Position numbers and translations under genes: made by a program
Notes under the pieces: model-generated
Database searches by the model: none
Seen by the model: only the letters and a program-made list of their open reading frames with translations
Told to the model about the DNA's origin: nothing
Virus record (IMG/VR): IMGVR_UViG_3300042691_041259
Coordinates: 96,001-160,000 of that record
Strand: one strand, 5' to 3'
DNA length: 64,000 bases
From: a virus
Taxonomy: Duplodnaviria > Caudoviricetes
Part shown: piece after piece, positions 23,419 through 48,100 of the stretch
How positions within the stretch are numbered: the first letter of the stretch is position 1
Layout of the letters: each line of letters starts with the position of its first letter

Positions 23419-23427
23419 CTATATATT
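23419..23427 (-). promoter_or_regulatory. Putative late promoter variant AATATATAG
   Basis: About 25 nt upstream of the tail fibre start; one mismatch to GATATATAG. Confidence 0.4.
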
Positions 23428-29400: not shown

Positions 29401-31814
29401 AATATGTCTTCAATAACCATTACTACCTGTGAGTTTCCTCCGGGTAGAAGATCCGCATTACTTTGCGAAGAGATCTGTGTTATGCCTCCATAGTCGCTGA
29501 TGTTTTCTTGATTGTCAAATAGCTGTAATTGCGTAACTCTTTTAAAACTTGGAGATCCTGGAGTTCCATAATTTAATTCTTGAAGTTTATTGACTCTCTT
29601 AAAATTTCCAAATCGATCTTTTACATAAAAAAACCGAAGAGGATCATCCACCATTGAAGGCAGAGGAAACTTCCCATTTACAAATCCCGTGTACTCGGGT
29701 GTTGCTGAAGTGTTAATTGTTCCATCCGCCGGATTATGAAAATAGTCTACTGGCAGTTGTATGCCATTTGCGTTTGTTTGTACAAAAGGTTGAAGATTAT
29801 ACGGCTCTCCGTCAAGACCTAATTTTGGCAAAGGTGTTTGACCACTTATAGCGCCTAGAATTTCAGGAACAATTTCAAACTCTGCAAGCTGATTTTCTGT
29901 TACATAAAATCCATAGTATCTATTGATAGAGTACGGGGTTGCTTCCGTGTCATTAAACAAAAATTCCAAGTTGATTAGATTAGTACTAATTAAAGTATTT
30001 CTTTCAAAGCCGCTGGTAATAGTTTCCTCAAAATCGAGTATTCGATTGTCGCTTGTCCAAAAATCATTTAAGAATTCTCCTTTTCCAGTTATATTCCCAG
30101 TTGTGTAATCTATACCATACCATGTGGTAGGTGTGTCGGAACTAAAAGACACTTCAAGAGGTCGCTCTTTAAATCGTGGATCATCTACAATTTTTCTAAG
30201 ATACGTACCAAGCGGTGAAGACTCTCGCAAATCAAAAGTTTTAACAACTCTAGCGTCCTTAAAGAACTCTTGAAACTTTTCCGGATTTGTAGAATCGTGA
30301 TATGTAAGAGGGTTCAGCGGATGATCCAATCTAAATATCACAAAGAATTCCGGCAATTGTTTTCTCATCCAAAGAGGCGCCAGGAAAGTATAGTCTTCGT
30401 CATAGAATTTACTGTTTAACTGTTCTATGCCGTAATTGTAAAAGTTATCATATTGTTCGCTTAGCGATCTTTTTGTATTAAGATATTGATCATCCTTTTG
30501 ATACAGCTGATACAGTAGCTGTGGAGACAGTTTTCCTTGATCTAAGAAATAAAAGAGATCTCTTTGAAAAGTTGAATTTGAACTTATAGCGTATTTCTTA
30601 AATCTCGAGTTTGAAAGCTCCTCTGACGCATTAATAGAATTAAGCCATAAGGCTCCGCCAGAATCCACAGTAAGTTTAACATTACCTGTAAGCTTTGGAT
30701 TTGTCTTAAGTACACCATATGAAGTAAGGTCATCATAAATTTCCGACCCTGTATTAGGAAACTCATTTTGATAAGTTGTGCGCGTAGTTTTTACATCCGT
30801 TTCCGGGTAACCAAAAAGATGTAATTCGTGATAGTCAACTAAATGCTCTGTTGCAAGATCCGCTTGGGCCAATTTTTGTCCATAATTAACAGTAGCTCTT
30901 GCAATTTCTGCAGACATAGTTGGATCTGCGTCCCAAACAAAAGGAGCGGTAGCTGATGAATCTGTTTTTGCTATTAAAAAGTTTATCTTTAAATGCGAAT
31001 TGGCAACACCATCATAATCTATTCTGTAAGTTATTCTAGGAGGATTTGGATCAATCGTATTTTTTCGATAACTTGACCAAGGATTAACGACCCCTGAAAC
31101 AATTCTAGTAAAATAATCCGTGCTTGCTGGCCAATCATCGGTAGGCGTTTGGCCATCAAATTGATTAGGCCCTATTGGCGATGGATTATAGTATACTGGA
31201 GGAGCGCTTATCAAACTTTGTTCTGCAACGACTGCTGCGCTAATTTGATTGATTTGCCAATTGTTGTCCTCTTTCCAGTTACCAATTTGCATTAAAAAGC
31301 CTTCTCCTTGAATTTGGTCAATGCCAGAGTATGCCGAATCTATTGCAATGTAATAATAATAGGTTCCACTGATAAGATATCTGCCTTTTTCAACAACTTT
31401 TGATTGGAACCTCATAACATTTATAGGTCCTGCATATGATGACGCGGTTGATAAACCCGGAGGGGTTCTAGCGTACATAGAGACCGTTTTTATATCGTCT
31501 CCAATTTGAATAGCTTCCCATGAAGCCTTTTCAAAGGCTTTTCCAGTTTTTGCAAATTCGGAAAAATAGAATCTAAATTGAGTAGGCTCTGGCTGAGGCA
31601 TTGGCGACTCTGGAATCACGGTCATGGCCTCAAATTTCGATTCAAAAGTCTGTGGCTGTATGTATGGAGAAGCCCAAAGAGTTTCACCGTCAGCCCACGC
31701 GGTGCCGGTTGCAGGGTCCGGATCATTTGCCTCTATGCTAAGAAAAAGAGTTGTTCTGCCTTGCACAACAACCTCTTTCTCAAAATTTACTCTGTAGAAA
31801 TTTGAATTACGCAT
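23427..31814 (-). CDS. Giant virion structural protein (baseplate/tail associated)
   Basis: 2795 aa uninterrupted; three copies of a ~65-aa beta module; GxGY-type module; tail-cluster context. Confidence 0.6.
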   Translation of the reverse strand: MRNSNFYRVNFEKEVVVQGRTTLFLSIEANDPDPATGTAWADGETLWASPYIQPQTFESKFEAMTVIPESPMPQPEPTQFRFYFSEFAKTGKAFEKASWEAIQIGDDIKTVSMYARTPPGLSTASSYAGPINVMRFQSKVVEKGRYLISGTYYYYIAIDSAYSGIDQIQGEGFLMQIGNWKEDNNWQINQISAAVVAEQSLISAPPVYYNPSPIGPNQFDGQTPTDDWPASTDYFTRIVSGVVNPWSSYRKNTIDPNPPRITYRIDYDGVANSHLKINFLIAKTDSSATAPFVWDADPTMSAEIARATVNYGQKLAQADLATEHLVDYHELHLFGYPETDVKTTRTTYQNEFPNTGSEIYDDLTSYGVLKTNPKLTGNVKLTVDSGGALWLNSINASEELSNSRFKKYAISSNSTFQRDLFYFLDQGKLSPQLLYQLYQKDDQYLNTKRSLSEQYDNFYNYGIEQLNSKFYDEDYTFLAPLWMRKQLPEFFVIFRLDHPLNPLTYHDSTNPEKFQEFFKDARVVKTFDLRESSPLGTYLRKIVDDPRFKERPLEVSFSSDTPTTWYGIDYTTGNITGKGEFLNDFWTSDNRILDFEETITSGFERNTLISTNLINLEFLFNDTEATPYSINRYYGFYVTENQLAEFEIVPEILGAISGQTPLPKLGLDGEPYNLQPFVQTNANGIQLPVDYFHNPADGTINTSATPEYTGFVNGKFPLPSMVDDPLRFFYVKDRFGNFKRVNKLQELNYGTPGSPSFKRVTQLQLFDNQENISDYGGITQISSQSNADLLPGGNSQVVMVIEDILKNETPIADYETFEISLEKLSSEQRDYYYRITIINTPGGDIEYDVQKNDTGVFGSLPEDYLTTGFTGTNSPSWVDSYLVVKFLGSPTVGDSFEVRVQNGNIVSQNRVVGLNTDLECYGETEYLQYKWILEANPVGLSPGEGWDYPVYDPQTRDYKNTFSNRGTPAQVAQAIAQCINSFEYCIVKAESLGDSVYIKSLENFENGNKITIKRRLKENISVPRNTGFYEKGNANRGSFTADVLTGRIDSITGITSTANGYTTGSYYDVPSSVSPIGGVAANFDIVVDGTGSISSVTIAYGGFGYSDTDTVTIDKDLIGGAALSADIDLAITTASVPELSFQMKEYTPVYTVSDYFISSTQISTTPDQWSVNIRKGVDPYNPYVTGTSTTYISPADSTVLKIDEFSIDLAGTGNFSALIHFEWGTDHLSQYFVGGVRRNRARAAISFEDGKRYYSDRNTNFIGSIALASDQITSVTFPNSLYVGAPISGSGISVGSVILELRENTSTVVISKNATETASSVSFKAGEISITNDKEVYQQWFQVQKGNYSRLRGWDVQGKYVYSLPYLENSDFSDYNIYSIIQIDKDRDEFYYTLDKKVVAYQVYRPTFGIFSLLPIKTFDVDTYFSEYSYAPTIELLRYFNREEVGSVFVPFVGNVTNGSDIINNITFPNDLFVGMPLRDSTFAVGGPYIQADTTIIEVTPAVLPALGSIKISKPALASSLTAALSAGTLNFTDPINLNMGENYDVSIIVEDYTGSPLDTINLELDIEFFDNNDKKWKFVDRTVSILHIDPLAGSTPIANNVEQAKSLQTLMMNTTYPPYFYDVLEIPNDYLGDATPPLGPFNAANPQGANPGQDNKGPQYTAVGTRNFVRKLLHTDGTNESFFTKARISAINVWGDYNTSDDPTTAIKYKIRVQGSNYYKDTNITRFAGFSSLTDFLTADDLETIGRFSDDQSFEKFTYQMLLSEYDRLRENQQKDLAVKSKVVPSILKWVQEGTDARDNYYRLNNSSAFGITNFSPDPEVDFTEPLLLTHEFPYLDNVPKDFPEETLEGSRSYFFQKLSDIAYQDKSWYELLTTDNTKDWFTKYFVVGYPNEISQEKLEVPKNREERYTFFKYINGLDLSQTLFRGAKINVVDYDTTVTPKTPINESKRFDLYKFASIARFVTHGNFEEEKPIDIEVIDNQLFKTILIIVTIHVQDYRLQAGLGDYSFFYYAIDQLRNSMQTQSIGGYGAFSEFFRPVYDNVGPEAVDNKYPMEVPYTTQPTRSPGYLVTSNYFYNNSGVAPWSYYAEDIPKAFNIMRPRQLLLGGGRLELDDTKLGGKAWVGGFEDPASLITKIIFQPLTTTDGTSAYPFADTSINYYPVYQEVFPTLDNYRTSIDYYLGGWNDEFNNTFTANRTTGSNLLTGVSSPNNAYIGALVYGSGIPTGTTITAKTTSTITLSTAATSTGVGATYSFLIGYGIPFFTSSPNLEDFSYDASSMTVDGFLSEIGVASKNTFNNGRSSIVVYDSRAAADDIKLDYLAFSTPERYRSFRVSDITDINVRATTSTNVGFVTLPSNLPSYPPYPYVSASQNFVINTTYNTYQTFNLRGGSLFYQYRKNFISFASISKMFNQQSNYILHRKITTTGSVIQSNPDFSLQFVEFDKIKKLSRYFYSDDLDKPLEYENTEFIGYDLTKTKEQEFEFRHRGLYEPKTNEVISFWAREDESFTRHFETDYVLKNTHINSVSSVAGLMRNYFYNKVSDEEVLRISRTSAYKSLYPLIGEVSIDKRNLSALDSSWDASFYRKYRTTTSYADLSGTQEMLETKVFLASKAMAVPKTFEFQTFIEGEVNFEVIQPKKSIGVTTIASPNTVENNSLQTFPLLQIRLDLRTRLKRALLEGILASGSFDEFAWFNSLGISDITYTQAELDVLKSEYIEKNIIPLYEVTQILLYANNGEGLPVLELELTEADKLAAGYRTDSNFKNTSQSSFVYSLEKTLDTKAANAYSISAVLKRI

Positions 31815-34800
31815 TATCTAGTCAGCGTTTTAATGCTATTTTTATCGTATGTGATATTTTCTTTGGTTTTAACCAGAGAAGTCTGTAACTCATCCACTCT
31901 TTGAGCTGTTGATTGTCTCTTGTAAGTAGCGGAAACTTGCACATCAAAAGAAAACACCGTTGTTTCTTTTACATAGATATCTATTCCAATCTTTTTTGAA
32001 TAGTTCAATTGCGTAGGTGGAGTCCAACCAGCAGAACTGTCATAGCCACCTACGTAGCCAGTACCGGTACCGGTGTTATCACCTGCATAGTCGGTCATTC
32101 TGAATTGATATATGATAGGAATCTGAATTGCATTTGCTTCACCAGTTCCAAGATCTTTTACAGCTCGATAGTCAGTTCCATCTACTAGAAGTTGATCAAA
32201 TGTAGCAGGCGCCAATAAGAGATAAGATCCACAAGTATTTTTTCCAATCAAATAACGGTCGCCATCAATGAATCCAAATTTATCTGGCAGCAAATCTACG
32301 CTAGGCGTAAATACTGGGTTTGGTGGAATCGGTGGAATTGTTCCGGCTGGAGTTGCACCTGAATTTTCATACCAATTATTCTTGTATTGTAACTGTCTTA
32401 CATCATCGGCAGACGTATTAAAATTGTAAGCATGTCTAAAGGTAGAAACGCTTTCAGCCGATGTAGGATAGCCATCCACCGTAGTTGAAAAAATCTGCGG
32501 TGATTGCAAATATATTGGTAGCGTTCCTGTTTGAATTGCTGGATGCTGAATATGCACGCAGAAATCGTTTATCTGTCCGCCGCCTTGCGGTGCACCACCT
32601 GAATATGCTCCATTCCATATATACGACTGAATTGGAGCGGCTCCATTGATATTAGGCAGCAATCTTCTAGCAGCGTCAGTTCTGGGTTCTACATAAAGTG
32701 GCGTCGCCAAGCCTATATCAGTATATCTACTATAGAGATATTGCGATCTCAGCTGACCGCTTTGATAAAAAGCGGAGCTGAATTTGTTTGCATTGTTAGT
32801 ATCCGCTCTTGCAATTGTTGTATTTACAATTGGAACAAGATCGTACTTTCTAGCATAAATGTAATCATAGTCATTGAACGTAGTAGTAAGACCGCTATCT
32901 GGCAAATCCTGCCCAATACCGCCAGGGAATCTTGAAACAAGTTCCAGCGTTGCAGCAATAGGATTTTCCAGAGAGAGTATATAGACTTTGTTAATTACTG
33001 CGCCTCTTTGAGAAGAAGACGGAAGCAACGCTACGTAATCCGTATAATAGCCTGCAAAAAGTTTGATAGTCGAACCGTTTTGTATTTCGGTTTTTGAACT
33101 TGCATCTTTGTCTATTACAAAAACGTGTAATTCTCCTTTTGCTTGAGAAATTTTGTTTTGTATCTCCTGGATTGCAATATCTAATGCTTTTAATTTTTCA
33201 TACAGGGAAATAACTACTCCTGAAGAATCGTAAAATGATGAAGATATTACATCAGCGCTGTGAGCATAGTATTGTTCGCCAGAATTAAATGAAGAACTAA
33301 GGTGAACATCAAGTCCTTTGGCAGCCAAATCAGATTCCAATTGAACTTTTACAGCCTCTTGTCTTGCTTGAGCCAGCGCTAGTAACGCCTCGTCTTCGCC
33401 AGTGAAATCCTGTGGAAACTCAATACTAACAATGTTTGACGGAACAGAAAGCAACGGTGATACTGGCCATCCTGCTTCAGAAACTGCCACAATGTAAAAC
33501 TCAACCTTTTCGCCTTTAGTGATAGGAATATCTACCTGGTTGACGTTGATAGTGTCCGGATTTTCAATGTCCTCGCTATCCCATACGTATTTTCCAACAG
33601 TGGTATTGTAGCTTTTTGTGCGAATATCCGACTTTACCTGTTGCCAGTTGCTGAAACTTGCTCTGACTGTTTTACCAGTCGTTGAAGCTATATCAAACTG
33701 TTTTGTATCCGATGCGTTTCCTGCTGGATTAACATAACGGTAATACACATAGAATTGTATTACATTTTGGAATCCAGTCTTATCGCTATACTTTGGTGTT
33801 GGAATATCGAAGAATCCACGAACCCTGTATTTTGGAGTATCTAACGCGGCAGGCGCATCTTGTGAAGTTGCTGCAAGTTCGTTTACAATACTCGCATATA
33901 GAGAAGATTGGCTGTTCTTTTCTCGAATCAACGAATCCAACTCGTTCTTTACGCCACGACGATCTGTCTCAGAAGCAAAGTTTGTTGTATTGAGTTCTTG
34001 AGTTTTCTTATCTATTGAACTCTGTAGCTGAGTAATTAAAGCCTCAATTCTTACTTTGTCGGCAGCCTTTTTACGTATAGAAACTATTTGTGCTTGATCC
34101 AGTTTATGTTCATTAACTTGCACAACTTTAAAGTTTGCTGCATTAAGCTCAGGCGCATCAGGAGTTATACCATCCATTACTGAAATGGTATTGTTTTTGG
34201 TTGCGGCTAAGAGCTGCGATCCAAAGTCCATTACACGAGTTTGATAGTAATCTACCAGGCTTGTTGTGCCTTCTGCCAAGTCAACTGACAGATCGTTGGA
34301 ATAAAATGCAACTCCAGGAGAATACTTTGTGGATATTAAGTTTTCTTCATCATTTACATTTTTGAAGAACACTACTTGTCTTTCATCAAATCCAACTCCC
34401 ACGTTAGCGAGTTTTGGAGAAAACCGAGGTGAATAAATTGAAACAGGTTCACCTGCTACAAGAGGCTCATAGCCACGAAGCCTTTTTATTCCCACGTATC
34501 GGGTTTCGCTATTAACCTCATTGACTTCGTATATAGTCTCGCCTTTGATCAATTGATCTCCGACTTTTAAAGTCATGGTATTCTGTTGTATCGAGAGGTT
34601 ATCTGTGTATCTTAGACTGTTGAAAAGATATCTCCTTTTGGTTACCACAGTACCGTCTTGTAGAGTGACCTGTTGGTCACGATATGAAACAACAGTAAAT
34701 TCACCACTGTATCGGACTACTGAAAGAGGTAAATCGATAACTTCCTCGTCTACATAAAAAGTGTAATTGAGCCTTTGCAGTTCAATCAGAAAGTTTACGT

Positions 34801-35335
34801 AGTCAATATCATTTCTGCCTTTGATGTTTCCATCAAAGTATGTGATTTTTTCTTGAGTATCCGTATTGATGATGAGCCTTTTTACACCAATTTTGGATTC
34901 TTGCTGTGCAACATATTTTGTAACATTAAAGCTAACTTTAAGAGCCGGAGTCATCATTGACTCAAAGAACCAATTAGTTTCTGGTACAAATTTAGATGGC
35001 ACTTTCAAAGAACCTATTGGTGCTGGATCCGTAGGCGTTTTTGTTTGATAAATCCGCTTAAAAGATCCGTCAGGCATTCTGACATACGCCTCTGAGTCAA
35101 ACCCCATTAAAGTAGTTAGCGTATTATCAATTCGCGAAAGCGAACCTCGGATTCCCGAAAAGGATGGAATTGTGTATGTGCTGGTAGTCCCGTCAGCATT
35201 TGTTGTAGTTACCTGAACTACATCCGCGTCTGTTGTGACTGCTTGAGATTGTTTTGCGATAATCTCCAGAGCATTATTCTGAAGCCTAACAAACTCCGCT
35301 AGAATTGTTGAAAAACTATTACTGGTCTCTGCCAT
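31814..35335 (-). CDS. Large virion structural protein
   Basis: 1173 aa; two coiled-coil segments and an Ig/FN3-like strand pattern (KVEFYIVAVSEAGW..SNIVSIEF); TAATG coupling to the 2795-aa gene. Confidence 0.55.
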   Translation of the reverse strand: MAETSNSFSTILAEFVRLQNNALEIIAKQSQAVTTDADVVQVTTTNADGTTSTYTIPSFSGIRGSLSRIDNTLTTLMGFDSEAYVRMPDGSFKRIYQTKTPTDPAPIGSLKVPSKFVPETNWFFESMMTPALKVSFNVTKYVAQQESKIGVKRLIINTDTQEKITYFDGNIKGRNDIDYVNFLIELQRLNYTFYVDEEVIDLPLSVVRYSGEFTVVSYRDQQVTLQDGTVVTKRRYLFNSLRYTDNLSIQQNTMTLKVGDQLIKGETIYEVNEVNSETRYVGIKRLRGYEPLVAGEPVSIYSPRFSPKLANVGVGFDERQVVFFKNVNDEENLISTKYSPGVAFYSNDLSVDLAEGTTSLVDYYQTRVMDFGSQLLAATKNNTISVMDGITPDAPELNAANFKVVQVNEHKLDQAQIVSIRKKAADKVRIEALITQLQSSIDKKTQELNTTNFASETDRRGVKNELDSLIREKNSQSSLYASIVNELAATSQDAPAALDTPKYRVRGFFDIPTPKYSDKTGFQNVIQFYVYYRYVNPAGNASDTKQFDIASTTGKTVRASFSNWQQVKSDIRTKSYNTTVGKYVWDSEDIENPDTINVNQVDIPITKGEKVEFYIVAVSEAGWPVSPLLSVPSNIVSIEFPQDFTGEDEALLALAQARQEAVKVQLESDLAAKGLDVHLSSSFNSGEQYYAHSADVISSSFYDSSGVVISLYEKLKALDIAIQEIQNKISQAKGELHVFVIDKDASSKTEIQNGSTIKLFAGYYTDYVALLPSSSQRGAVINKVYILSLENPIAATLELVSRFPGGIGQDLPDSGLTTTFNDYDYIYARKYDLVPIVNTTIARADTNNANKFSSAFYQSGQLRSQYLYSRYTDIGLATPLYVEPRTDAARRLLPNINGAAPIQSYIWNGAYSGGAPQGGGQINDFCVHIQHPAIQTGTLPIYLQSPQIFSTTVDGYPTSAESVSTFRHAYNFNTSADDVRQLQYKNNWYENSGATPAGTIPPIPPNPVFTPSVDLLPDKFGFIDGDRYLIGKNTCGSYLLLAPATFDQLLVDGTDYRAVKDLGTGEANAIQIPIIYQFRMTDYAGDNTGTGTGYVGGYDSSAGWTPPTQLNYSKKIGIDIYVKETTVFSFDVQVSATYKRQSTAQRVDELQTSLVKTKENITYDKNSIKTLTR

Positions 35336-38481: not shown

Positions 38482-38490
38482 CTATATATC
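38482..38490 (-). promoter_or_regulatory. Putative late promoter GATATATAG
   Basis: 30 nt upstream of the 38452 start; overlaps the stop codon of the glycosylase gene. Confidence 0.5.
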
Positions 38491-39348
38491 TCCTTCAATT
38501 CCTTTTGTGTTTGACCGCTTATATGCCGCCGGAACGTTTTCTTCCCAGCGTGGGTCATACCAGAATCTTCTGCCAGTTTTGTCAATCACCGAATTGCCTT
38601 TACCATAAACCTGCATCCATGCACCAAATCCATCAGCAGGGACACCATTAGGGTTTACCCAGTCTTTTAGCTGTCCACCACCAAGAGTGTATGCATCTCT
38701 TACGCATAGGTGTGTGACTTTTAGAATTTCTTCTAACTGATCACGAGTAAGATCTTTTGCAATGGTAAAAGGCATAACGTTGGTTCGATAAAGAATCTCA
38801 GCTCTGAGGTAATTTCCAACTCCGTTAAAATAGCCTTGATTCATTAAGAGCTCATTTACCGGAGAGTTAAATGCTTTAGATGTTTGCCAATTTGCTCGAA
38901 CTGAGTTTGCAAACTCATTAAATTCTGTAAGAGGGCACGGACCTCTGTCAGAATTCCAGGTACCCCATCTCCACTTTGCAAAACGTCGAACATCATGTAA
39001 AACCAATAGATCTCCACGATTAGTGATTAGCCTCAAGTGAGCGTGCTTTAAGACTTCGTCTTTCTTTGGACTGTCATGCCGTACCATCGCCCAGGATCCG
39101 CTCATTCCAAGAGATACCATCAGATAACGTTTATCTTCACCGGTAGGCCCTCCTCCAACAAGCTCAAGCTCAAGCATCAATTCCTTTCCTCGGCTAGCGG
39201 CTTTAACGGTAAAAAGACCACCATCAAAGGCAGTAAGTTCAGTTTTTACTTTTGAGACGGGTGATTTTTCAATCTTCTCAAAGAATTGATTAGTAGCGAC
39301 CATGTTAATAAAGTCGCCCATGATTTTAACTTCGGCTAATTCAGGCAT
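38482..39348 (-). CDS. Fpg/Nei-family DNA glycosylase/AP lyase, NEIL1-like (zincless finger)
   Basis: Catalytic N-terminal PE, RGKEL, LGMSGS, HAHLR, DVRRF, RGPC, H2TH NQGYFNGVGNYLRAEILY; no C4 zinc finger. Confidence 0.9.
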   Translation of the reverse strand: MPELAEVKIMGDFINMVATNQFFEKIEKSPVSKVKTELTAFDGGLFTVKAASRGKELMLELELVGGGPTGEDKRYLMVSLGMSGSWAMVRHDSPKKDEVLKHAHLRLITNRGDLLVLHDVRRFAKWRWGTWNSDRGPCPLTEFNEFANSVRANWQTSKAFNSPVNELLMNQGYFNGVGNYLRAEILYRTNVMPFTIAKDLTRDQLEEILKVTHLCVRDAYTLGGGQLKDWVNPNGVPADGFGAWMQVYGKGNSVIDKTGRRFWYDPRWEENVPAAYKRSNTKGIEGDI

Positions 39349-40067
39349 TATAGAGTATTGCTTTGTAAAGTTTGTGGCTGATATATGTTGTAGATCTTTT
39401 CGGCTAAGAGAATCATTGATTTTACATCCTTTTCACAGTATGTAGTTACACGATCAATTTCACCAGCATAAAATGTGGAATGAACCTGACTGCCATCAAT
39501 ATCATCTTTTGGAGTTGGGATTCCCATGCCAAAACAAGCCTCTTCAAATGTAACATCCAATGAAGATCCGCTTTTCCACATTTCTTTCATATCAAAGATA
39601 TTCATTTCCCAAGGCTTCTTTTCATAAGAACTTAAACAATCAGGAACTTGGATTCCATTTATTAGCAGCCGGCGGACAATCCATGGAACGTCAAAGTTTT
39701 TAATGTTCCATCCGGTAGGTATTAAACCTGCGGAGTCTGCTTTATGAAATAGATTTGCAATCTTCTTTAGCATTGTGACTTCATCACTATCAGAAATTGT
39801 TTGGATTTGCATTTCGCCATCCTTCCAGATTCCATAAGAAAGACATGCAATTCTTCCAAATTCAGGAAAGAGCGCCACATTGTTTGGGTAGTCTTTATGA
39901 AGATCGCCTGTCCAGCTCTTTCCATTGTGGAGTCGGCTGCTTTTCTTTTCAAATATACCAACCGCTTCGGGACCTTTGTCATCAATCATGGATTGAAAGT
40001 CTGGATATTGACCGCAAGTCTCAATGTCAAAAAATAAGAATTTCTTAAACTTTTCTCGTGAATACAT
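39348..40067 (-). CDS. DEDD 3'-5' exonuclease (stand-alone PolB-exonuclease-like)
   Basis: FFDIET, GWNIKNFDVPWI, YCEKDV; TAATG coupling to the glycosylase. Confidence 0.85.
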   Translation of the reverse strand: MYSREKFKKFLFFDIETCGQYPDFQSMIDDKGPEAVGIFEKKSSRLHNGKSWTGDLHKDYPNNVALFPEFGRIACLSYGIWKDGEMQIQTISDSDEVTMLKKIANLFHKADSAGLIPTGWNIKNFDVPWIVRRLLINGIQVPDCLSSYEKKPWEMNIFDMKEMWKSGSSLDVTFEEACFGMGIPTPKDDIDGSQVHSTFYAGEIDRVTTYCEKDVKSMILLAEKIYNIYQPQTLQSNTL

Positions 40068-40199: not shown

Positions 40200-40466
40200 A
40201 TGGACCAGAACGATCTCAGAAACGCTATGCAGTCACCACAGATTGACTTAAGCACGGCTCCTTGGCACGGTTGTGAGCAAGGTAATTTTATGTTTGACAA
40301 TGCTACAATGTTCAAGCGCATTTCTCCACTAGTTTCTCCTACAGGAAACGAAGAGTTTGCAGCTGCTGAAGTTATAGTTTGTCGCAAGTGTGGAAAGATT
40401 CCGCCCTTCTTTGCTGAAAAAATGGGCGATTGTCCAGCTGAACACGTTTCAGAGTGCAAGAAGTAA
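40200..40466 (+). CDS. Small hypothetical protein, possibly metal-binding
   Basis: 88 aa; HGC..., CRKCG and further Cys/His; divergent from the exonuclease gene. Confidence 0.6.
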   Translation: MDQNDLRNAMQSPQIDLSTAPWHGCEQGNFMFDNATMFKRISPLVSPTGNEEFAAAEVIVCRKCGKIPPFFAEKMGDCPAEHVSECKK

Positions 40467-40870
40467 AACACTATCAAAAGATCTCAGTTAGACGCTCCTC
40501 CCTACATGGGTGGGGCGTTTTTGCTGATGAAGTTATTCTGCCAAATGAAATGGTGGAAGTTGCGCCTGGCGTTCTTTTACAACAAAGCTTTTTAAACGCT
40601 TGCCACTACGTTGCAACTGCCGAAGGAATGCCACCCGAAGAGATCATGTTAGATCAATATGGGATTGGCTGGACCGATGGCCGAGCTTTCTTTCCTTTAG
40701 GATGGGTAGGTTTATACAACCACTCCGACAATCCTTCAGCAGAATTTGTGTACGTAAGCGATGAACTTGTTGGAATCCGCTCTCTTAAAGAGATCTCTCC
40801 CGACCAAGAAATTACCGTTAACTATGGGGATCACTGGTGGAGGCAGAAGGGTTACCTCCAGAAGGCTTAG
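40454..40870 (+). CDS. SET-domain protein (putative lysine methyltransferase)
   Basis: SSLHGWGVFA, YNHSDNPSA, EITVNYG are SET signature motifs; GTG start. Confidence 0.88.
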   Translation: MQEVKHYQKISVRRSSLHGWGVFADEVILPNEMVEVAPGVLLQQSFLNACHYVATAEGMPPEEIMLDQYGIGWTDGRAFFPLGWVGLYNHSDNPSAEFVYVSDELVGIRSLKEISPDQEITVNYGDHWWRQKGYLQKA

Positions 40871-41591
40871 ACTCATAACGCTCAAACTCGTCTTCAATCT
40901 CAATGATAATGGGATTTCTTACAATATCTTCGCGATTGAAGTGCATTATTCCAAATTGAGTCTTGCTTTCAAATAGTCTCATCACAATTTCAAGCGATGA
41001 CATCTTTTTGTCTTTAAGGTCAATTTGTTTGGTGTCTCCAATAATGATCATTTTGCTGTCTTCGCCAATACGAGTCATGGTAGTTCTCATATTCTTTAGA
41101 GAGATATTTTGAGCCTCGTCTACAATAATAATCGTGTTATCAATAGAACGACCTCTAATATACGCCAAAGGTAGTACCTCAATAATTTCATGCTCGATAA
41201 GTTTTTGTGTAAGAGGCTTGCCAATAATTTTGTAAAAATTGTCAAGAAAAGATTCCATAAATGGCTCCATCTTTTCTTTAAGGCTTCCTTTAAGATATCC
41301 AATGTCTTCTCCTTCTGTGACAGTTACGCTTTTGGCAAGAATAATTTTCTTGTAAAAGTTTTCCGAATTTGCTAACAGCTTGAGAGCCTCAGCACAAGCA
41401 ACATAAGTCTTGCCCGTTCCGGCGGGACCTCCGCAGATAACTATATCTTTATTTTTGATAAGCCTACTCAGAAGCTTTTGATTTTCTGTCTTTGGTAAAA
41501 AACTGACTTTTACTCTGGCAGTTGAAAATTCTTCTCTCACATATTGAGGTTTTTCTTCTGCGGATTGTTGGTTTGGTTTTCTTCTTGCCAT
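40818..41591 (-). CDS. phoH: PhoH-family ATPase
   Basis: GPAGTGKT, GYLKGSLKEKM, LAYIRGRS, DEAQN, GDTKQID, DIVRNP. Confidence 0.95.
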   Translation of the reverse strand: MARRKPNQQSAEEKPQYVREEFSTARVKVSFLPKTENQKLLSRLIKNKDIVICGGPAGTGKTYVACAEALKLLANSENFYKKIILAKSVTVTEGEDIGYLKGSLKEKMEPFMESFLDNFYKIIGKPLTQKLIEHEIIEVLPLAYIRGRSIDNTIIIVDEAQNISLKNMRTTMTRIGEDSKMIIIGDTKQIDLKDKKMSSLEIVMRLFESKTQFGIMHFNREDIVRNPIIIEIEDEFERYESKPSGGNPSASTSDPHS

Positions 41592-42145
41592 TATACTTTT
41601 ACGGTTTGAACTTTTACATCTTTTTCTTTCTCTAACTCTTTTGCGTGATCAAGATTTTCTTGATTGTCATCGAAAAAGATAAAGTCATAATATCCTTGTG
41701 ATATGAGGTCTTTTAGTGCCTCAGATTTCTTTTGTGCAATACTTCCTTGATATGAATACTTTGGATCATTAACAGCTATCACCAAGTCGGGGTGAATGTC
41801 TATACCATTCTCTAAAAAGAACGTTCTTATCATATTAGAAGATGAACGAGCAGTGAGTATACACACATGTACTCCTCTTCTATAAAAGTCATTGAGTTTA
41901 TCCAGTACATGAGTAATAAACTCAGCGTTCCTTAGCACGTCTAGGCTTTCAAAATCTTTAAAAGAAAGACTGTGTTTCTTGGGATCGTGTTTAAAAAAAT
42001 TAAACTCAGCAGGCGTAAGACTTTTAATTACTTTGCCTTTTCGGTCAAGAACCTGTATTTTTGCGGTAGATATAACTAACGTATCGTCCAGGTCAAAGAC
42101 CGCAAGTCTTCCTTTGGAAGTTCCTTTTATATTTGCTTCGTTCAT
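41591..42145 (-). CDS. HAD-superfamily phosphatase-like protein
   Basis: Motif I FDLDDTL, motif II LTAR, motif III K (QKK), motif IV FFDD. Confidence 0.8.
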   Translation of the reverse strand: MNEANIKGTSKGRLAVFDLDDTLVISTAKIQVLDRKGKVIKSLTPAEFNFFKHDPKKHSLSFKDFESLDVLRNAEFITHVLDKLNDFYRRGVHVCILTARSSSNMIRTFFLENGIDIHPDLVIAVNDPKYSYQGSIAQKKSEALKDLISQGYYDFIFFDDNQENLDHAKELEKEKDVKVQTVKV

Positions 42146-42150
42146 ATACT

Positions 42151-42158
42151 TATTTATC
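42151..42158 (-). promoter_or_regulatory. Putative late promoter GATAAATA
   Basis: 6 nt upstream of the HAD start; recurrent motif. Confidence 0.4.
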
Positions 42159-45100
42159 CTTCATTACGATCTGCCATATAGACTTCTATATAGTCCTTGT
42201 TGTATCGGCTTTGCGTATTACCATTGGTATCGGTAATTTCCAATTCCAAGTCGTATAGGCCAGTCTCCAGGAAAGTCCACATAAAGTCAGAATCTTCTAT
42301 TGAACAAACTTTAGTTCCATCATGATATAGGTTCCATAAGAAATGTGTTTTTCCTGCAATATCTGATGCGTCTGATGAAAATAATACCGAGCATCCAGCA
42401 GGGATTTTTCTTTCACGCAATGATATTGTAGTGTCTTCCCATGTAAATGCCGAGTTTATAGAACTCTCATATTGCAGTCTCATTGAATCCCATTGCTCTG
42501 TACTGCTCCAAAGTTGTCTTGTGACTGGCTGGATTTTTATATTTAGATCTAACGGGGTGTACGCATAAAAGACTGCTGTAGCTGCTGAATCAATAGGTAT
42601 GTCAATATTGATTAAACTATTTTTGTTATCAACGCTAATAATTTTTGTCTTAAACTGATTTGTAAGAACTGGTCCGCCTGAAACTTCGCCTATAACCATT
42701 CCAGACTTAAGAGATTCAATAGGACTTGGCATTAAAGCAGGTGTAAATGGAGCTGTCGGCTGCGTTATGCTGGTAATTTGATAAGTTTCCGGATCAAATA
42801 TGAGAGCCCCATCAATGTTTGTAGTTCCATTAAAATACACTGCGTTTCTTCCTATTAAACCAGTTTGAGGATTAACCACAACAGCTTCAATAGTTAAAGT
42901 TTCTGAGCTTACTGGCGAAGCTGCCGAGTTGTAAACATTTGAAGCAAATTTTATCACTATAGGAATAGGATACTGGTCCCAGTTAGAATAATTGGCTGCA
43001 AAAAAAGTGCTAGTTGAAAAATCAAAAGGAGAACCTGCGTTGTATATAGTGGCTTGTCCATCAAAAAATGAATTTAGAACTAAATATAAATCGTCAGGCG
43101 TTGGCGGAACTATTGCGTTGCCGTTTACATCAAATATAGAAACTACAGTTCCAGGTTTATACAAGTTAGGAAAAGTATTTGCAATTGGTGTTAAAAACGG
43201 AAAACCATCAACCTGGCCATTAGGAGAGCTCCATGACTTAGAAGGGTACCATCCTCCATTAACAGCATTGTAGTCGCTGTAACGATTCTCCCCTCCCTCA
43301 TAAATGTAGGTTTGTATGTTTCTATACGGCTGAGCAAATTGCAGAAGACTATTTTCTAAGCCTGCACCATAAAATATATCTCTATTTTGAACCCAATTAT
43401 AGTAATTTCCAAGAGGAAAAGTATGGTTCCACTCGGTAAGATCACTGACTCCAGGCTCGTATATGTAATGATTTGACACAAATAAATTATTAGTATTGGA
43501 TCTAACGTATCCTAAAGAATCTGCACCCGGAGACTTTGCATACGCATTAATTACTATATCAGGATCGGAAGCCGGCGTTGACAATATAAATTTCACAGAG
43601 CCGGCTCTTTTTGGATATACCTCCATACAAAAGCTTTCAACTGTTGTCGCGGCAGGTGCAAACATAGTTAGCGTAGTAACAAAACCACTGTTCTCGTTGA
43701 TAAGGCCAATGCCAGGTCCAAATTCACCAATTATAGTTAATGCATTTGGATCCCACAACCAGCCTGCAAGAGGAAGATCTGATTGATACCCTACTATATT
43801 GCTAACAACTTTGCTGCCAGCTACCATATCACCGTGTATTACACATGCAGGAATCCATGGAATAGCTCCTCCAACAGTAAACGCTCCAGAAGAACCGAGA
43901 GTTACCTGTCCAGCTCCAGCGCCTGAAACTTCCCATCCTGGCTGTATATTTGTTCCAAGAACAAAATCCCCAACAGCAGCAATGGTATCATCACCATAAA
44001 GATTAGAATCAGTAGGATCGCCCCAAGTGTAAAAACCTTGATCAACCGCTCCTATAGTATCAGAAGACACTTCATAATAAAACTTTGAAAGACCGGGATT
44101 GTCATTTTTGCCCCAGTAACCTGATACGTCGTATATGTTATTGTTTAAAAAGTTTGTGGCAAATACAGCAATTTCTGGATAACTAACAGCTGGCATATCA
44201 TAGTAAAGCGGATCATATTCATTAAATTGTAAAAATGTTTCTCCCGAATTCTCTGCTACAAATCGGAAATTTGCTGAAAGACTATACGGCCAGTCAATGG
44301 TGTTCCATGTCTGCGAACACATTGCATCCCAATCAAGATTCAAAACTTCACTCCAACCAAGTTTTACTCCTAAATGAGTATCTGCATAGTCTTCATCAAA
44401 GTCTCGTGCTTTAAGCTTAAATGTAGAATCACAGCGATAGAGTTCGTGATTAGGGTCTTTTACCGTCACAATAGACCATCCTGGAATTTGATAAAATTCT
44501 CCAACATTTATTATTTCTTGTGAATACTCGCCTTCAGAAATTCCCCAATCAAAGAACCACCCTCTTCCTGTGTATGGTTCTGCTGGAAATACTATGCTAT
44601 TTTCAAATTCACCAAGAATTGGACGAGTATTAAAGTCCATAGTTATATCAAGATTTCCTGTAATACCATTTTGGAGAGATGTGTAAGTTCTTGTTGGAAA
44701 CACATTATATTTGTACTCAATCCAACCAAATATGTCAATGTCGTCAATTTGCCCTAGCCAATTATTGAGCTCGTCAAATTTCTTTCCTTCTAGCGCTGTG
44801 GCTTCTATACAAATTATGGAAGACTCGCCAGCGCTCCATATATTCCAAGGACTACCTTGATTGCTAGAGTCCTCATACATATCAATAGTTCGGAAATGCT
44901 GCTCATATAGAGTCGTTCCCTCATTAAAGATTTTTCCTTTAATTTCATAAAGTGCAAATATTCCTCCAATTTGATATGTTACCCATACGGAATTAGTAAC
45001 GGGATTATACACCATTACTCTAAATACTCCTGGCACTGTAGGATTTATTGTGTACACTGGAGTTGAAAGATCAAAAAAGCTGTACACATCAATTCTTGGA

Positions 45101-48100
45101 GTTCCACCAACATTTCTAGAAACCCACCAGTGACCATCAGCTTCATGATATGCAAGAGCGGTAACAGTATTCCAGTTTGCTGAAATGTTTTTATTAGTAC
45201 GCGTATACGGATAACTGCATTCCAACTCATAATAAACAGTGGTAGCAACCGATAAATTAAAGGCTATGATTCTATCAATATGTTCTACATAACGAATGCC
45301 AAGAACTGCTGCTGGAAGAGATACCGTGTCAATGATAGTATTCCAATTTGGTGAATTTGGATCTGCATCAATTATTGAAAGCGGTGAATTGTCTCCTGCT
45401 AACACCCAAATCCTTTTTCTTACAGGATCATAAGTAATACCGGAACAACTAGTATTAGGGGTTGTATCTATTTGAGCAATTATTGAACCTGTATTAGCGT
45501 CTACGCAATACGCAAATTCGTCAGAAGTTGCACAATAAAGCATATCGTAACCTGATCCGCCATCTCTTACAAATACCATGTTAGCGTTTGTAGAATTAGC
45601 GCTGGTTAATGTAGTAAATAAAGATGCTGTATTTGTATTGGGATCCAAGGTATAAATGTCGTTACCGATAGTTTGCCCTTCTGGATAAAAAAAGCGGTCA
45701 AGTTCTCTTACATAAAATAGTTTTTTTACATTTGCGGCAATTGATATGTTATTCTGTGTAGCGGCTTCTAAATCAATATAATATGCGTTATTTGTAGACG
45801 GTGGAACATACACACCGTAAATAAATCCAGGGCCTCCATCAGGGCTAGGGCGATACGCGCCAGCACCGGTAAAAATACTTATTGGCTGAATAAGTGGCGG
45901 AGATATTTCAGGATCAAGTGGATCGAACGCCCACCAAAAAGTTTTATCAGGTTGCGTAATTACAAGATCAAACTCAGTAAAACCAGGACGGACTTCTTTT
46001 AATAAGTCAGCAGTAGTTGCATACGTATTTGTATTTGTATTGTTTACATAAAACATTGCTCGATTTCCCCAATTTGCCTCAGTAGGGCTATCAAGAGTCT
46101 CAACTACTACAGGTGCCGGATTGCCTAAAACTCCTAAATTCAAATTACCGTTCTCATAAGATTGGTTTCGGTAGTTATAGATTTGCCCACTTACCCATTG
46201 CTCGGTTATCGGCGAAGTGCCATCTGTGATGATTCCTGAATATAGTGTTGTAACAGGATCTACATTTTTTGCATATATAGGTATACCCCATGAAGCAAGT
46301 GGATGATCTAAATTCCACCGGCTATCATTTAGTGGAGTATTATTGTCTCCTTTAAGAGTAACATATTGTCCAGGAATCAAAGTTTTCCCGTTTTCTGGAG
46401 TATATAAATCATCTTGAATAACAATAGTATTTGCAACTTCTCTCAGGACTTCCCAAGCAGTAGGGTTTGCCTCAAAACTTGATGGCCATGCAGGCACAGA
46501 ACTAATTGTGTATTCAACATATGTCACAAAATCAGTAGCGCTAGTTGCTTCCACCGGAAACACAGATCCATCTCTACGAAGATACACAATTTCTGCACCA
46601 AAGCTTGTAGCAATTGGTCGATTCTGCACATCAGAAAGCTCCACTGTGACTACACCTGTAATAGGATTAAACTCAGTGACTTTACCTACAAGGCTATCAT
46701 AAGCAGATACTTTCCATACGTCATAATCAGGAGCTTTTGGATAGTTCCAATTGTTTTCCTGGCTAAGAGGTGTTACATTCAAGGTATCCCATAGGATATC
46801 ACAATCATCCCACACAGTCCATGTTTTAATATGATTGATCCAACGGCCCCAAAACTCGTCCCACATATAAAAAGCTTCATCCCACGTGTCTACACAATTT
46901 TGTTCCATCTGTAGAATGTTTGACTCTTGGCCAGATCCATCATAAACGCCTGGTGTGTCTGACGGGCCGATATATCGTGTAGCAAACGAAGACAATGCCT
47001 CAGGCATATATACTTCTACGTAGTCTCTTTTTATCTCGTTTACCCAATTGTTATCTGTGTCATATACAATCAGCTCTACTTTATAGAAACCTTTATACGG
47101 CAAAGGAACCGTGTGAGTAATAAGTTTGTCAATAGATTTTTGTCCAGAAGTATAAATGAAATTGCTGGTTCCTGGCTCAGATGTAACTTTCCATTCCATG
47201 TCATAAAAGTTTCCACGACCAATTTCATCCCAAGTATATAAGGTTGAAGTATGCCCGCCGGTAAGTTTTACTTCTGGCGTGGAAGTATAAGCTGACCCAC
47301 TGCTGTTAATTTCAATAGCGTGTATCTGTATGTTAAAATTTCCTGGAACCGAATTAAAGCTTGTGGAAATATCAACGTAGTTTCCGCCTACCGTATCATA
47401 AGCAAGTACAACACATGGCTTATCCAAAGAATTTCCACCAGTATCAGTACCAACTACAAACATTGTTGGAAGTATCTGGACCTGTAAAGGAAACACTGCT
47501 TGTGGAGTTGCAAAAAATGCTCGAGCAGAGGTTGGCGAAAGCGCATTAATTGAAGTTACTTCAAGATCTAAAATCTTCACTTCACCGTTTCTCATATATG
47601 CAGTAGCTGTGGCATTTATGCCATCGCCACCAATAAAGTCTACGGTTGGAGTACGTGTATAACCGCTACCTGGATCTATAATTTCAATTGCTTCAATTGC
47701 GCCGGTGCCCGCTGGAAGAGGGCTAACATAGGCTTTTAGAGTTGCCTCGGTAGCGCTCCATAAGTTATCCCATGAAAATATCATTTCATCCCAGGTAACA
47801 TCGAATCCAGTTGCCTCAAGCTCAAGAAAAGCAGCTACTGGAGCATATGGCTCATTGGTAAGAACTTCTAATTGTGTCCCTTGATCAAAGTATCCTACAT
47901 ACGGTCCTTGAACTGTTGTGAGATTAAAATTGTACGTACATACTATTGGAAGACCTGTATCTGGATCTGCTGGCGTAAATACTGGAGGATCTAAGATTGG
48001 GTAACCCTTTCCTTGTGTGGTTGTTTTAACGCCTTCCAACACATATTGAATATCTTGTTGATCAAGTTTAAATCCTCTGCCTACCCCTGAATAGTAAATG

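What the first reader, a model, noticed from the sequence alone, without database searches (positions are those of the whole stretch)
38482..39348. Phage glycosylase that resembles animal NEIL1 more than bacterial Fpg/Nei
Seen: SRGKELML, LGMSGSW, HAHLRL, DVRRFAKW, RGPCPLTEF, KAFNSPVNELLMNQGYFNGVGNYLRAEILY..PF, and WMQVYG..DKTGRRFWY with no C4 zinc finger. Known (recalled, needs alignment): human NEIL1 has ARGKELRL, FGMSGSF, HAHLRF, DIRRFGRW, RGPCVLQEY, KAFDRPICEALLDQRFFNGIGNYLRAEILY..PF and a zincless finger WLRCYG..DRHGRTIWF. Such colinear similarity in a bacteriophage bears on the origin of NEIL1 (phage, bacterial or giant-virus transfer).
Basis: partly seen in the sequence, partly recalled or inferred. 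Interest (0 to 1): 0.75.

Follow-up and report, generated by a model that had tools for sequence, protein, structure and literature searches.

The report
Phage NEIL1-type DNA repair glycosylase
A T4-like jumbo phage carries an intact DNA-repair glycosylase that is clearly closer to animal NEIL1 than to bacterial Fpg/Nei; it belongs to a large, mostly phage-borne family that is the nearest known kin of eukaryotic NEIL1, but which side gave the gene to the other cannot be resolved.

Summary

- **Similarity:** human NEIL1 matches at E 1e-37, against 1e-12 for the best bacterial Fpg, 1e-6 for Mimivirus Nei1 and 1e-3 for E. coli Nei. A confident model (pLDDT 94.6) is nearest to NEIL1 (Z 29.6, against about 24 for Fpg and MvNei1).
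- **Residues:** the catalytic and DNA-contact residues map one to one. The protein lacks NEIL1's C-terminal tail and a roughly 20-residue insert.
- **Not a chimera:** gene order is conserved in independent phage contigs, and dN/dS is about 0.07.
- **Distribution:** at least 427 IMG/VR viral contigs carry a relative. Only 11 loci were found among about 185,000 prokaryote species; one of those is a mis-binned phage and eight (seven labelled Poribacteria) form a chromosomal Poribacteria clade.
- **Phylogeny:** trees separate this NEIL1-like group from Fpg/Nei (100/99). Eukaryotic NEIL1 is one clade (99/92) that excludes the window protein. AU tests (p 0.35 and 0.37) cannot tell whether eukaryotes are nested in, or sister to, the phage sequences, so the origin stays open.

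Other first-stage readers flagged similar genes in other phage genomes. The likely function is base excision repair of oxidised bases in phage DNA. A translationally coupled exonuclease and a nearby T4-Pnkp-like 3'-phosphatase may act with it.

The parts
38482..39348 (-). NEIL1-type Fpg/Nei-superfamily DNA glycosylase/AP lyase gene, 288 aa, intact
   Evidence: ORF. Pfam PF01149 54.5 bits and PF06831 39.5 bits, both over cut-off. Human NEIL1 E 1e-37. AF2 pLDDT 94.6. NEIL1 is the top structural match at Z 29.6. dN/dS 0.07 against the L019 orthologue.
38971..39348 (-). N-terminal beta-sandwich domain (aa 1-126) with Pro2, Glu3, Lys55, Met82, Arg121 and Phe123
   Evidence: PF01149 spans residues 1-126. 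P2, E3 and K55 are invariant, and M82, R121 and F123 are conserved in at least 90% of 64 phage and animal sequences. They map to NEIL1 P2, E3, K54, M81, R118 and F120.
38668..38898 (-). Helix-two-turn-helix DNA-binding domain (aa 151-227) with the FNGVGNYLRAEILY motif
   Evidence: PF06831 spans residues 151-227. N175, G176, G178, N179, Y180, L181 and R182 are invariant or nearly so. N179 aligns with NEIL1 N176.
38554..38619 (-). Zincless finger (aa 244-265): a beta-hairpin with Arg260 and no cysteines
   Evidence: DSSP strands at 252-255 and 261-264 in the model. R260 is conserved in at least 90% of sequences and aligns with NEIL1 R277. The structural alignment to NEIL1 runs to residue 290 of NEIL1. 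PF09292 is only weak for this protein (13.2 bits), but it hits 32 of 64 family members.
39348..40067 (-). PolB-exo2-type 3'-5' exonuclease gene (239 aa), translationally coupled to the glycosylase by a TAATG overlap
   Evidence: PF10108 1.4e-13 and phrog_25228 3.5e-34. Stop and start share one base. The gene is adjacent to the glycosylase in 27 of 82 related loci, upstream in the window's lineage and downstream in a second lineage.
41591..42145 (-). Stand-alone HAD phosphatase resembling the T4 Pnkp 3'-phosphatase domain; a possible processor of the 3'-phosphate left by beta,delta-elimination (inferred)
   Evidence: DLDDT and FFDDN motifs. phrog_415 'polynucleotide kinase' 8.9e-12. The AF2 model (pLDDT 75) is closest to the T4 Pnkp phosphatase domain (Z 13.1), full-length T4 PNK (12.3) and Pnkp1 (12.1), against 10.8 or less for other HADs.

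Best explanation
The gene encodes a functional, compact NEIL1-type bifunctional DNA glycosylase/AP lyase of a T4-like jumbo phage.

Inferred mechanism, by homology with NEIL1: after removal of Met1, the Pro2 amine attacks C1' of a flipped-out oxidised base (thymine glycol, 5-hydroxyuracil, Fapy lesions, hydantoins). Glu3 and Lys55 assist. Met82, Arg121 and Phe123 fill the gap in the helix. The H2TH motif (Asn179) and Arg260 of a cysteine-free beta-hairpin (the zincless finger) hold the lesion-strand phosphates. Beta,delta-elimination then leaves a one-nucleotide gap with a 3'-phosphate.

The enzyme most likely repairs oxidative base damage in the phage's own DNA during infection, alongside the phage's UvdE. 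The translationally coupled 3'-5' exonuclease, and a T4-Pnkp-like 3'-phosphatase two genes away, may clean the 3' end as PNKP does for mammalian NEIL1.

What is shown: sequence, fold, residue conservation, purifying selection and family distribution. What is inferred: activity, substrates, the end-processing partners and the biological role.

In evolutionary terms it belongs to a large, mainly phage-borne lineage. That lineage and eukaryotic NEIL1 together form a group distinct from all other sampled Fpg/Nei.
For: - Sequence: NEIL1 E 1e-37, against Fpg 1e-12, MvNei1 1.6e-6 and EcoNei 1e-3.
- Structure: the top 50 Foldseek PDB hits are all NEIL1. VIA Z is 29.6 for NEIL1, against 24.3 for EcoFpg, 23.8 for MvNei1, 21.0 for EcoNei, 20.3 for NEIL3 and 12.7 for NEIL2.
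- Residues: P2, E3 and K55 are invariant. M82, R121, F123, N179 and R260 are conserved in at least 90% of sequences and map onto the NEIL1 functional residues.
- Selection: dN 0.068, dS 1.0.
- Synteny: conserved on a 318 kb contig at 55% identity and in 19 or more IMG/VR loci.
- Family: more than 1,100 homologues, 427 IMG/VR contigs, and Atlas clusters that are 78-93% viral.
- Trees: the ingroup is separated from 14 Fpg/Nei sequences at 100/99.
- Repair context: UvdE is in the same genome and lies next to the homologue in a T4-like contig. The exonuclease is coupled by a TAATG overlap. The HAD neighbour is nearest to the T4 Pnkp phosphatase.
Against: - There is no biochemical or expression data.
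- PF09292 is below its cut-off for this protein on its own.
- The lesion-recognition loop differs from that of animal NEIL1: it carries the conserved motif GGGQLKDW and is 3 residues longer. Substrate range may therefore differ.
- The exonuclease is adjacent in only 27 of 82 loci, and the HAD in 11 of 82.
- The HAD's margin over generic HADs is small, 1.3-2.3 Z, and it could serve RNA repair instead.
- The AF2 alignment included animal NEIL1 sequences, which may pull the model towards NEIL1.
Confidence: 0.8

Rival explanations
1. The enzyme has been recruited for the phage's DNA-modification biology rather than for damage repair. For example, it might remove aberrant or oxidised derivatives of hydroxymethylcytosine-type bases, or attack unmodified or differently modified competitor or host DNA.
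For: The lesion-recognition loop is distinct and conserved within the phage family. Mammalian NEIL1 has been linked to 5-carboxylcytosine excision (title of PMC5566547, listed).
Against: The gene is not in or near the modification locus; it lies more than 20 kb away. The catalytic architecture is that of a lesion glycosylase. A homologue sits beside UvdE in another phage. The family also occurs as the sole Fpg/Nei member in Poribacteria chromosomes, where a housekeeping repair role is the simpler reading.
Confidence: 0.1
2. It is an ordinary bacterial Fpg/MutM or Nei picked up from the host, and the NEIL1 likeness is superficial.
For: Fpg homologues do occur in phages, for example Bacillus phage G gp292. 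NCBIfam's best model for this protein is fpg.
Against: The fpg equivalog scores 100 bits against a cut-off of 203, and Nei 43.5 against 252. There is no zinc finger. NEIL1 beats Fpg by 25 orders of magnitude in E-value and by 5 Z units. The tree separates it from 14 Fpg/Nei sequences at 100/99. Only 11 loci were found in about 185,000 prokaryote species.
Confidence: 0.03
3. The gene is a recent capture from an animal or other eukaryote, or the contig is an assembly chimera containing eukaryotic DNA.
For: The closest characterised protein is animal NEIL1.
Against: Identity to animal NEIL1 is only 33-44%. The eukaryotic sequences form a clade (99/92) that excludes the window protein and all sampled phage sequences. 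The gene overlaps its phage neighbour by one base. Its GC content matches the window. The same gene order recurs in many independent phage contigs. The phage family is very diverse, with about 100 clusters at 50% identity.
Confidence: 0.03
4. The protein is a DNA-binding or AP-lyase-only derivative without base-excision activity.
For: No activity data exist. The recognition loop differs from NEIL1.
Against: All catalytic residues (P2, E3, K55) and the void-filling triad are conserved under strong purifying selection.
Confidence: 0.04

Closest known systems
Human/animal NEIL1 (endonuclease VIII-like 1; PDB 1TDH, 5ITX, 6LWx)
   Same: Colinear over the whole catalytic core, at 33-35% identity. 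Same three-part fold: beta-sandwich, H2TH and zincless finger (Z 29.6, 258 residues, 2.3 A). Same catalytic P2/E3/K54, void-filling M81/R118/F120, N176 and R277 equivalents.
   Different: It lacks the roughly 100-residue disordered C-terminal tail, which from prior knowledge binds PCNA, RPA, FEN1 and other partners. It also lacks a roughly 20-residue insert after the H2TH. The lesion-recognition loop has a different conserved motif (GGGQLKDW). It lies outside the eukaryotic NEIL1 clade (99/92). It is encoded by a bacteriophage.
Mimivirus MvNei1 (L315; PDB 3A42/3A46), the published 'viral NEIL1 orthologue'
   Same: A virus-encoded Fpg/Nei enzyme with a zincless finger.
   Different: Far less similar to the window protein than NEIL1 is (E 1.6e-6 against 1e-37; Z 23.8 against 29.6; 23% against 35% identity). 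PMC3188539 places MvNei1 outside the metazoan NEIL1 clade. It comes from a virus of eukaryotes, not a phage. MvNei1 could not be included in my trees.
Bacterial Fpg/MutM and Nei (E. coli 1K82, 1K3W)
   Same: Same superfamily, same N-terminal Pro/Glu chemistry and same H2TH.
   Different: These enzymes have a Cys4 zinc finger, which is absent here. Identity is only 21-26%. The protein fails the NCBIfam equivalog cut-offs and lies on the far side of a 100/99 branch.
Mammalian NEIL1-PNKP (APE1-independent) base excision repair (prior knowledge; PNKP is listed among BER factors in the PMC12190888 abstract)
   Same: A beta,delta-lyase glycosylase encoded close to a Pnkp-type HAD 3'-phosphatase domain. 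This is the combination needed to turn a 3'-phosphate into a 3'-OH.
   Different: The phage phosphatase has no kinase or FHA domain. The linkage is inferred from gene proximity only and is seen only within the window's own phage lineage. T4 Pnkp itself works in RNA repair.

Membership tests
Fpg/Nei (H2TH) DNA glycosylase superfamily | N-terminal Pro2 nucleophile followed by a catalytic Glu | tested here: met
   The protein starts MPE. P2 and E3 are invariant in 64 aligned sequences, and all 90 or more fetched homologues start MPE.
Fpg/Nei (H2TH) DNA glycosylase superfamily | N-terminal beta-sandwich domain (PF01149) and H2TH domain (PF06831), both above Pfam gathering scores | tested here: met
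   54.5 bits against a cut-off of 25.5, and 39.5 against 34.7.
Fpg/Nei (H2TH) DNA glycosylase superfamily | C-terminal beta-hairpin (zinc or zincless finger) carrying a conserved phosphate-binding Arg | tested here: met
   Strands at 252-255 and 261-264. R260 is conserved in at least 90% of sequences and aligns with NEIL1 R277.
NEIL1 subfamily | Closer to NEIL1 than to any other characterised Fpg/Nei subfamily, in both sequence and structure | tested here: met
   E 1e-37 against 1e-12 or weaker for all others. Z 29.6 against 24.3 or lower.
NEIL1 subfamily | Zincless finger with no Cys4, matching Pfam PF09292 (Neil1-DNA_bind) | tested here: inconclusive
   There are no Cys after residue 215, and the hairpin superposes on NEIL1. 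However, PF09292 scores only 13.2 bits against a cut-off of 25 for this protein. It matches 32 of 64 family members at E<0.01.
NEIL1 subfamily | Void-filling residues Met81, Arg118 and Phe120 | tested here: met
   M82, R121 and F123 are aligned and conserved.
NEIL1 subfamily | Placement inside the eukaryotic ('MeNeil1') clade | tested here: not met
   The eukaryotic clade (99/92) excludes the window protein, which sits in a phage clade with L021, L030, L002 and P0099. It shares a 100/99 group with NEIL1 as against Fpg/Nei.
NEIL1 subfamily | Disordered C-terminal protein-interaction tail of about 100 aa | tested here: not met
   The protein ends 23 residues after the zincless finger, at 288 aa against 390 aa.
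NEIL1 subfamily | Glycosylase plus beta,delta-lyase activity on oxidised pyrimidines, Fapy lesions and hydantoins, including in bubble and single-stranded DNA | not testable with these tools
   This needs enzyme assays.
Bacterial Fpg/MutM (TIGR00577) | Equivalog score at or above the cut-off, and a Cys4 zinc finger | tested here: not met
   100 bits against a cut-off of 203.3. No Cys4.
Bacterial endonuclease VIII, Nei (PRK10445) | Equivalog score at or above the cut-off | tested here: not met
   43.5 bits against 252, and the match covers the H2TH part only.

The most novel reading that the evidence does not exclude
Eukaryotic NEIL1 descends from a glycosylase of tailed phages, possibly via a bacterium carrying one. 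This would parallel the phage ancestry of the mitochondrial RNA polymerase and the Twinkle helicase. The hundreds of phage lineages found here would then be the surviving donor pool. The free maximum-likelihood trees do nest the eukaryotic clade among phage sequences. Phage diversity far exceeds eukaryotic diversity. Cellular prokaryotes almost entirely lack the gene.
Probability: 0.35. Interest if true: 0.8.

Novelty: new member of a known kind. Interest (0 to 1): 0.6.

Why it matters
NEIL1 is a much-studied human repair enzyme linked to replication-associated repair, RNA editing of its own transcript, and cancer variants. Its clade has been treated as metazoan ('MeNeil1', PMC3188539). The only viral relative on record, Mimivirus Nei1, lies outside that clade.

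This analysis shows that the nearest kin of NEIL1 are hundreds of compact, tail-less enzymes in tailed phages. A small chromosomal clade in Poribacteria and intron-bearing copies in non-animal eukaryotes also belong to the group. Three consequences follow:

1. The origin of NEIL1 becomes a testable question, with a concrete sister or donor pool.
2. The phage enzymes are minimal, probably easily expressed models for studying NEIL1 lesion recognition without the disordered tail.
3. Large aquatic phages appear to invest in oxidative base excision repair, possibly with their own 3'-end-cleaning enzymes.

I found no paper on phage NEIL1-like enzymes in six full-text searches. However, JGI's automatic annotation already names these genes 'endonuclease VIII-like 1', so the resemblance is implicit in databases.

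Tried and rejected
- **Phage databases:** megablast of the region against 50,697 phage records found nothing. tblastn found only distant Fpg-type genes at 33% identity or less, so cultured phages lack close relatives.
- **Prokaryote scan:** a single-sequence scan of prokaryote genomes found nothing. The profile scan relied on one peptide pattern (QxxFNG[IV]GNY), so 11 loci is a lower bound.
- **MAG lookups:** two exact-sequence lookups of Poribacteria proteins were not on record. I annotated that locus with Pfam instead.
- **Neighbour PDB searches:** the HAD neighbour gave no PDB sequence hit. The exonuclease gave only weak T4/RB69 polymerase exonuclease-domain hits.
- **Promoters:** the promoter scan was at chance level, 14 found against 12.5 expected.
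- **Ligase:** no PF01068 ligase was found in the 202 kb record, which is only about 66% complete. This is no evidence of absence.
- **Outgroups:** I could not include MvNei1, NEIL2/3, plant or fungal Fpg, or actinobacterial Nei in the trees, because no tool gave me their sequences. Their relation to the window protein rests on PDB E-values and Z-scores only.
- **Donor lineage:** attempts to identify one failed. P0208 and P0198, at the base of or inside the 'eukaryotic' clade, lie on short ambiguous contigs. P0142 and P0130 look phage- or prokaryote-like, but their sister position is unsupported in the careful trees.
- **Direction of transfer:** the FastTree nesting of eukaryotes among phage sequences was not accepted as evidence of direction. 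The careful trees give a polytomy, and the AU tests do not reject reciprocal monophyly.
- **Phage status of representatives:** the 'rep' sequences in the trees are taken as phage on the basis of Atlas taxon shares, IMG/VR matches and sampled contigs. They were not checked one by one.

Full report
**Observation.** The ORF listing and translate show an intact 288-aa ORF at 38482..39348 on the minus strand. The protein has two cysteines (C138 and C215) and none in the C-terminal region, so it has no Cys4 zinc finger.

**What the window is.**
- The window is bases 96001-160000 of a 202.5 kb IMG/VR viral record that CheckV puts at about 66% complete.
- Nearly all genes run on the minus strand, and GC content is an even 0.36-0.44.
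- PHROGs and Pfam identify a baseplate wedge and hub, PhoH, a helicase, a primase, an SSB and a PolB-type exonuclease.
- A T4-type gp23 fragment lies at the contig end.
- The genome also has UvdE and two thymidylate-synthase-family genes.
- It is therefore a T4-related jumbo phage. Earlier notes of this scan say the same and propose a Bacteroidota host and an hmC-sugar locus. I checked those notes only in part.

**Family assignment.**
- Pfam finds the Fpg/Nei N-terminal domain (54.5 bits) and the H2TH domain (39.5 bits), both over their cut-offs. The NEIL1 DNA-binding domain PF09292 is only weak, at 13.2 bits.
- Against all PDB sequences, 15 distinct human NEIL1 constructs score 1e-37 to 4e-36. 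Next come E. coli Fpg at 1.3e-12, T. thermophilus Fpg at 2.7e-10, Arabidopsis Fpg and MvNei1 at about 1e-6, NEIL2 at 4e-4, E. coli Nei at 1e-3 and MvNei2 at 1e-2.
- NCBIfam's Fpg and Nei equivalogs are missed by a wide margin: 100 bits against 203, and 43.5 against 252.

**Structure.**
- An AlphaFold2 model built from a 64-sequence alignment has pLDDT 94.6 and pTM 0.90.
- All of the top 50 Foldseek PDB hits are human NEIL1, with TM 0.78-0.87.
- An exhaustive comparison with 48,161 representative chains gives the ranking below.

| Structure | Z |
|---|---|
| NEIL1 (258 residues aligned, 2.3 A, 35% identity) | 29.6 |
| E. coli Fpg | 24.3 |
| T. thermophilus Fpg | 24.0 |
| MvNei1 | 23.8 |
| Arabidopsis Fpg | 21.3 |
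| E. coli Nei | 21.0 |
| NEIL3 | 20.3 |
| MvNei2 | 20.1 |
| M. smegmatis Nei2 | 18.2 |
| NEIL2 | 12.7 |

- The C-terminal hairpin (strands 252-255 and 261-264) is the zincless finger.
- Caveat: the input alignment contained five eukaryotic NEIL1 sequences (four animal, one euglenid transcript). The ESM Atlas holds an independent model with pTM 0.87.

**Residues.** In the 64-sequence alignment of phage and animal proteins, P2, E3 and K55 are invariant. R53, G54, E56, M82, R121, F123, N175, G176, N179, Y180, R182 and R260 are conserved in at least 90% of sequences.

| Window protein | Primate NEIL1 |
|---|---|
| K55 | K54 |
| M82 | M81 |
| R121 | R118 |
| F123 | F120 |
| N179 | N176 |
| R260 | R277 |

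- The differences from NEIL1 are the absence of NEIL1 residues about 198-217, the absence of the C-terminal tail of about 100 aa, and a lesion-recognition loop with its own conserved motif (GGGQLKDW). In that loop K228 and W230 align with NEIL1 K242 and Y244.
- dN/dS against the 89%-identical orthologue is 0.068/1.00, which indicates strong purifying selection.

**Not a chimera.**
- The glycosylase start overlaps the stop of the upstream exonuclease gene (TAATG).
- The gene order (giant ORF, PhoH, SET, exonuclease, glycosylase, structural ORFs) recurs on a 318 kb contig whose glycosylase is only 55% identical.
- It also recurs in about 20 IMG/VR contigs from different samples.

**Distribution.**
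- The word-indexed search found 1,123 homologues. The top 120 are all 240-293 aa and metagenomic, and many are already auto-named 'endonuclease VIII-like 1' by JGI.
- The exhaustive search found 111 clusters at 50% identity with E below 1e-30.
- Atlas neighbours are 78-93% viral, mostly Uroviricota.
- IMG/VR holds at least 427 contigs with a relative.
- Among one genome each of about 185,000 prokaryote species, only 11 loci matched.
  - One of them, a 'Saprospirales MAG' contig, is in fact a T4-like phage. It carries a T4 portal, gp23, a ligase, and UvdE, the glycosylase and the exonuclease side by side.
  - Seven contigs labelled Poribacteria, plus one 'uncultured bacterium' MAG that clusters with them, carry the gene in what looks like a cellular context: sulfatases, RlmL and an L,D-transpeptidase (Pfam-annotated in one MAG). 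Flanking ORF sizes are similar in a second MAG.
  - In two of those genomes it is the only Fpg/Nei-family gene.
  - Only 5 of 151 sampled genomes of that phylum have it.
- Named long homologues are animal NEIL1 (primates, tuatara, amphioxus, molluscs, crab, tardigrade) plus protist transcripts from Mastigella, Paulinella and Ploeotia.
- One basal eukaryotic member is an intron-bearing nuclear gene next to COX16 and KIN17. NEIL1 is therefore not restricted to animals.

**Phylogeny.**
- A FastTree of 172 sequences and two careful IQ-TREE analyses under LG+C20 (85 and 94 rows) agree on three points.
  1. All NEIL1-like sequences (phage, Poribacteria and eukaryote) are separated from Fpg/Nei by a strong branch: 96/96 with 4 outgroup sequences and 100/99 with 14.
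  2. The eukaryotic sequences form one clade (98/94 and 99/92).
  3. The window protein sits in a phage clade with L021, L030, L002 and P0099 (99/96), well away from the eukaryotes.
- The backbone among phage lineages is a polytomy.
- I forced all non-eukaryotic NEIL1-like sequences into one clade sister to the eukaryotes. This costs only 12.4 and 9.7 log-likelihood units, with p-AU 0.35 and 0.37.
- The data therefore cannot say whether eukaryotic NEIL1 arose from within phage diversity, whether phages acquired it once from an early eukaryote, or whether both derive from an unsampled lineage.
- The outgroup lacks MvNei1, NEIL2/3, plant and fungal Fpg, and actinobacterial Nei.

**Mechanism and context.**
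- By homology, the enzyme should excise oxidised bases through the Pro2 Schiff-base mechanism and leave a 3'-phosphate after beta,delta-elimination. This is inferred, not shown.
- Two neighbours fit a downstream role.
  - A PolB-exo2-type 3'-5' exonuclease is translationally coupled to the glycosylase here. It is adjacent in 27 of 82 loci, in two different arrangements.
  - A stand-alone HAD phosphatase has DLDDT and FFDDN motifs. Its three best structural matches are the T4 Pnkp phosphatase domain (Z 13.1), full-length T4 PNK (12.3) and Pnkp1 (12.1), against 10.8 or less for other HADs.
- This resembles the mammalian NEIL1-PNKP route. However, the linkage is by proximity only, and the phosphatase could serve RNA repair instead.

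**Literature.** Six full-text searches found no report of NEIL1-like glycosylases in phages. PMC3188539 treats the NEIL1 clade as metazoan and places MvNei1 outside it. PMC8307549 suggests that H2TH glycosylases reached eukaryotes from mitochondria.

**Verdict.**
- The observation and the main reading are correct.
- The protein is a new, compact, phage-borne member of the NEIL1 kind: a sister or neighbouring lineage, not a member of the eukaryotic clade.
- Its predicted function is ordinary base excision repair.
- Its interest lies in the size and near-exclusively viral distribution of the family, and in making the origin of NEIL1 testable.
- Other first-stage readers flagged look-alike genes in two other windows of another genome.

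Noticed in passing
window 40454-40870 (+), with the 88-aa ORF at 40200-40466 (+): A SET-domain protein (PF00856, 3.3e-11) and a small Cys-containing ORF upstream of it are the only plus-strand genes in a long minus-strand block. The pair is conserved at the same place on the 318 kb relative L002 and in 19 of 82 related loci. A SET methyltransferase in a phage has no obvious target.
   Followed up: partly
L009-L016 (Candidatus Poribacteria MAGs); genomes G001, G002, G057, G068, G085: A subgroup of Poribacteria carries a chromosomal NEIL1-like gene between an RlmL-type methyltransferase and an L,D-transpeptidase. It is their only Fpg/Nei-family gene. One genome has two paralogues (95% and 60% identical to the query). 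The clade groups with a Neomarinimicrobiota MAG copy.
   Followed up: partly
L008 / L099 (CALAZP010000278.1, binned as a Saprospirales MAG): This 70 kb contig is a T4-like phage (T4 portal, gp23, prohead protease, ATP-dependent ligase), not bacterial chromosome. It has a compact repair cluster: 5'-3' exonuclease, UvdE, NEIL1-like glycosylase and PolB-exo2 exonuclease.
   Followed up: partly
L100 (GCA_003024175.1 contig MDYQ01000060.1), 8001-9295: An intron-bearing nuclear NEIL1 homologue (289 aa from 1,295 nt) lies next to COX16, a protein kinase and KIN17 in a non-animal eukaryote. Together with the Mastigella, Paulinella and Ploeotia transcripts, it shows that NEIL1 is not metazoan-only. Paulinella groups with animal sequences, which suggests contamination or transfer between eukaryotes.
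   Followed up: partly
window 16831-23394, 23427-31814, 31814-35335, 42154-50616, 56757-61628 (all minus strand): Five giant ORFs of 1,173-2,820 aa. The one I searched (31814-35335, 1,173 aa) gave no Pfam family. At least the giant ORFs flanking the glycosylase block have counterparts in the 318 kb relative. They are presumably virion or tail-fibre proteins.
   Followed up: no
window 55512-56726 (-): A phage-encoded 404-aa protein with three S1 RNA-binding repeats (PF00575, 2.7e-21) lies next to an amidoligase-like gene (54067-55470).
   Followed up: no
G000:C1:19450-20259 (outside the window): The same phage encodes a UvdE UV-damage endonuclease (182 bits). It therefore carries at least two independent DNA-damage incision enzymes.
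   Followed up: partly
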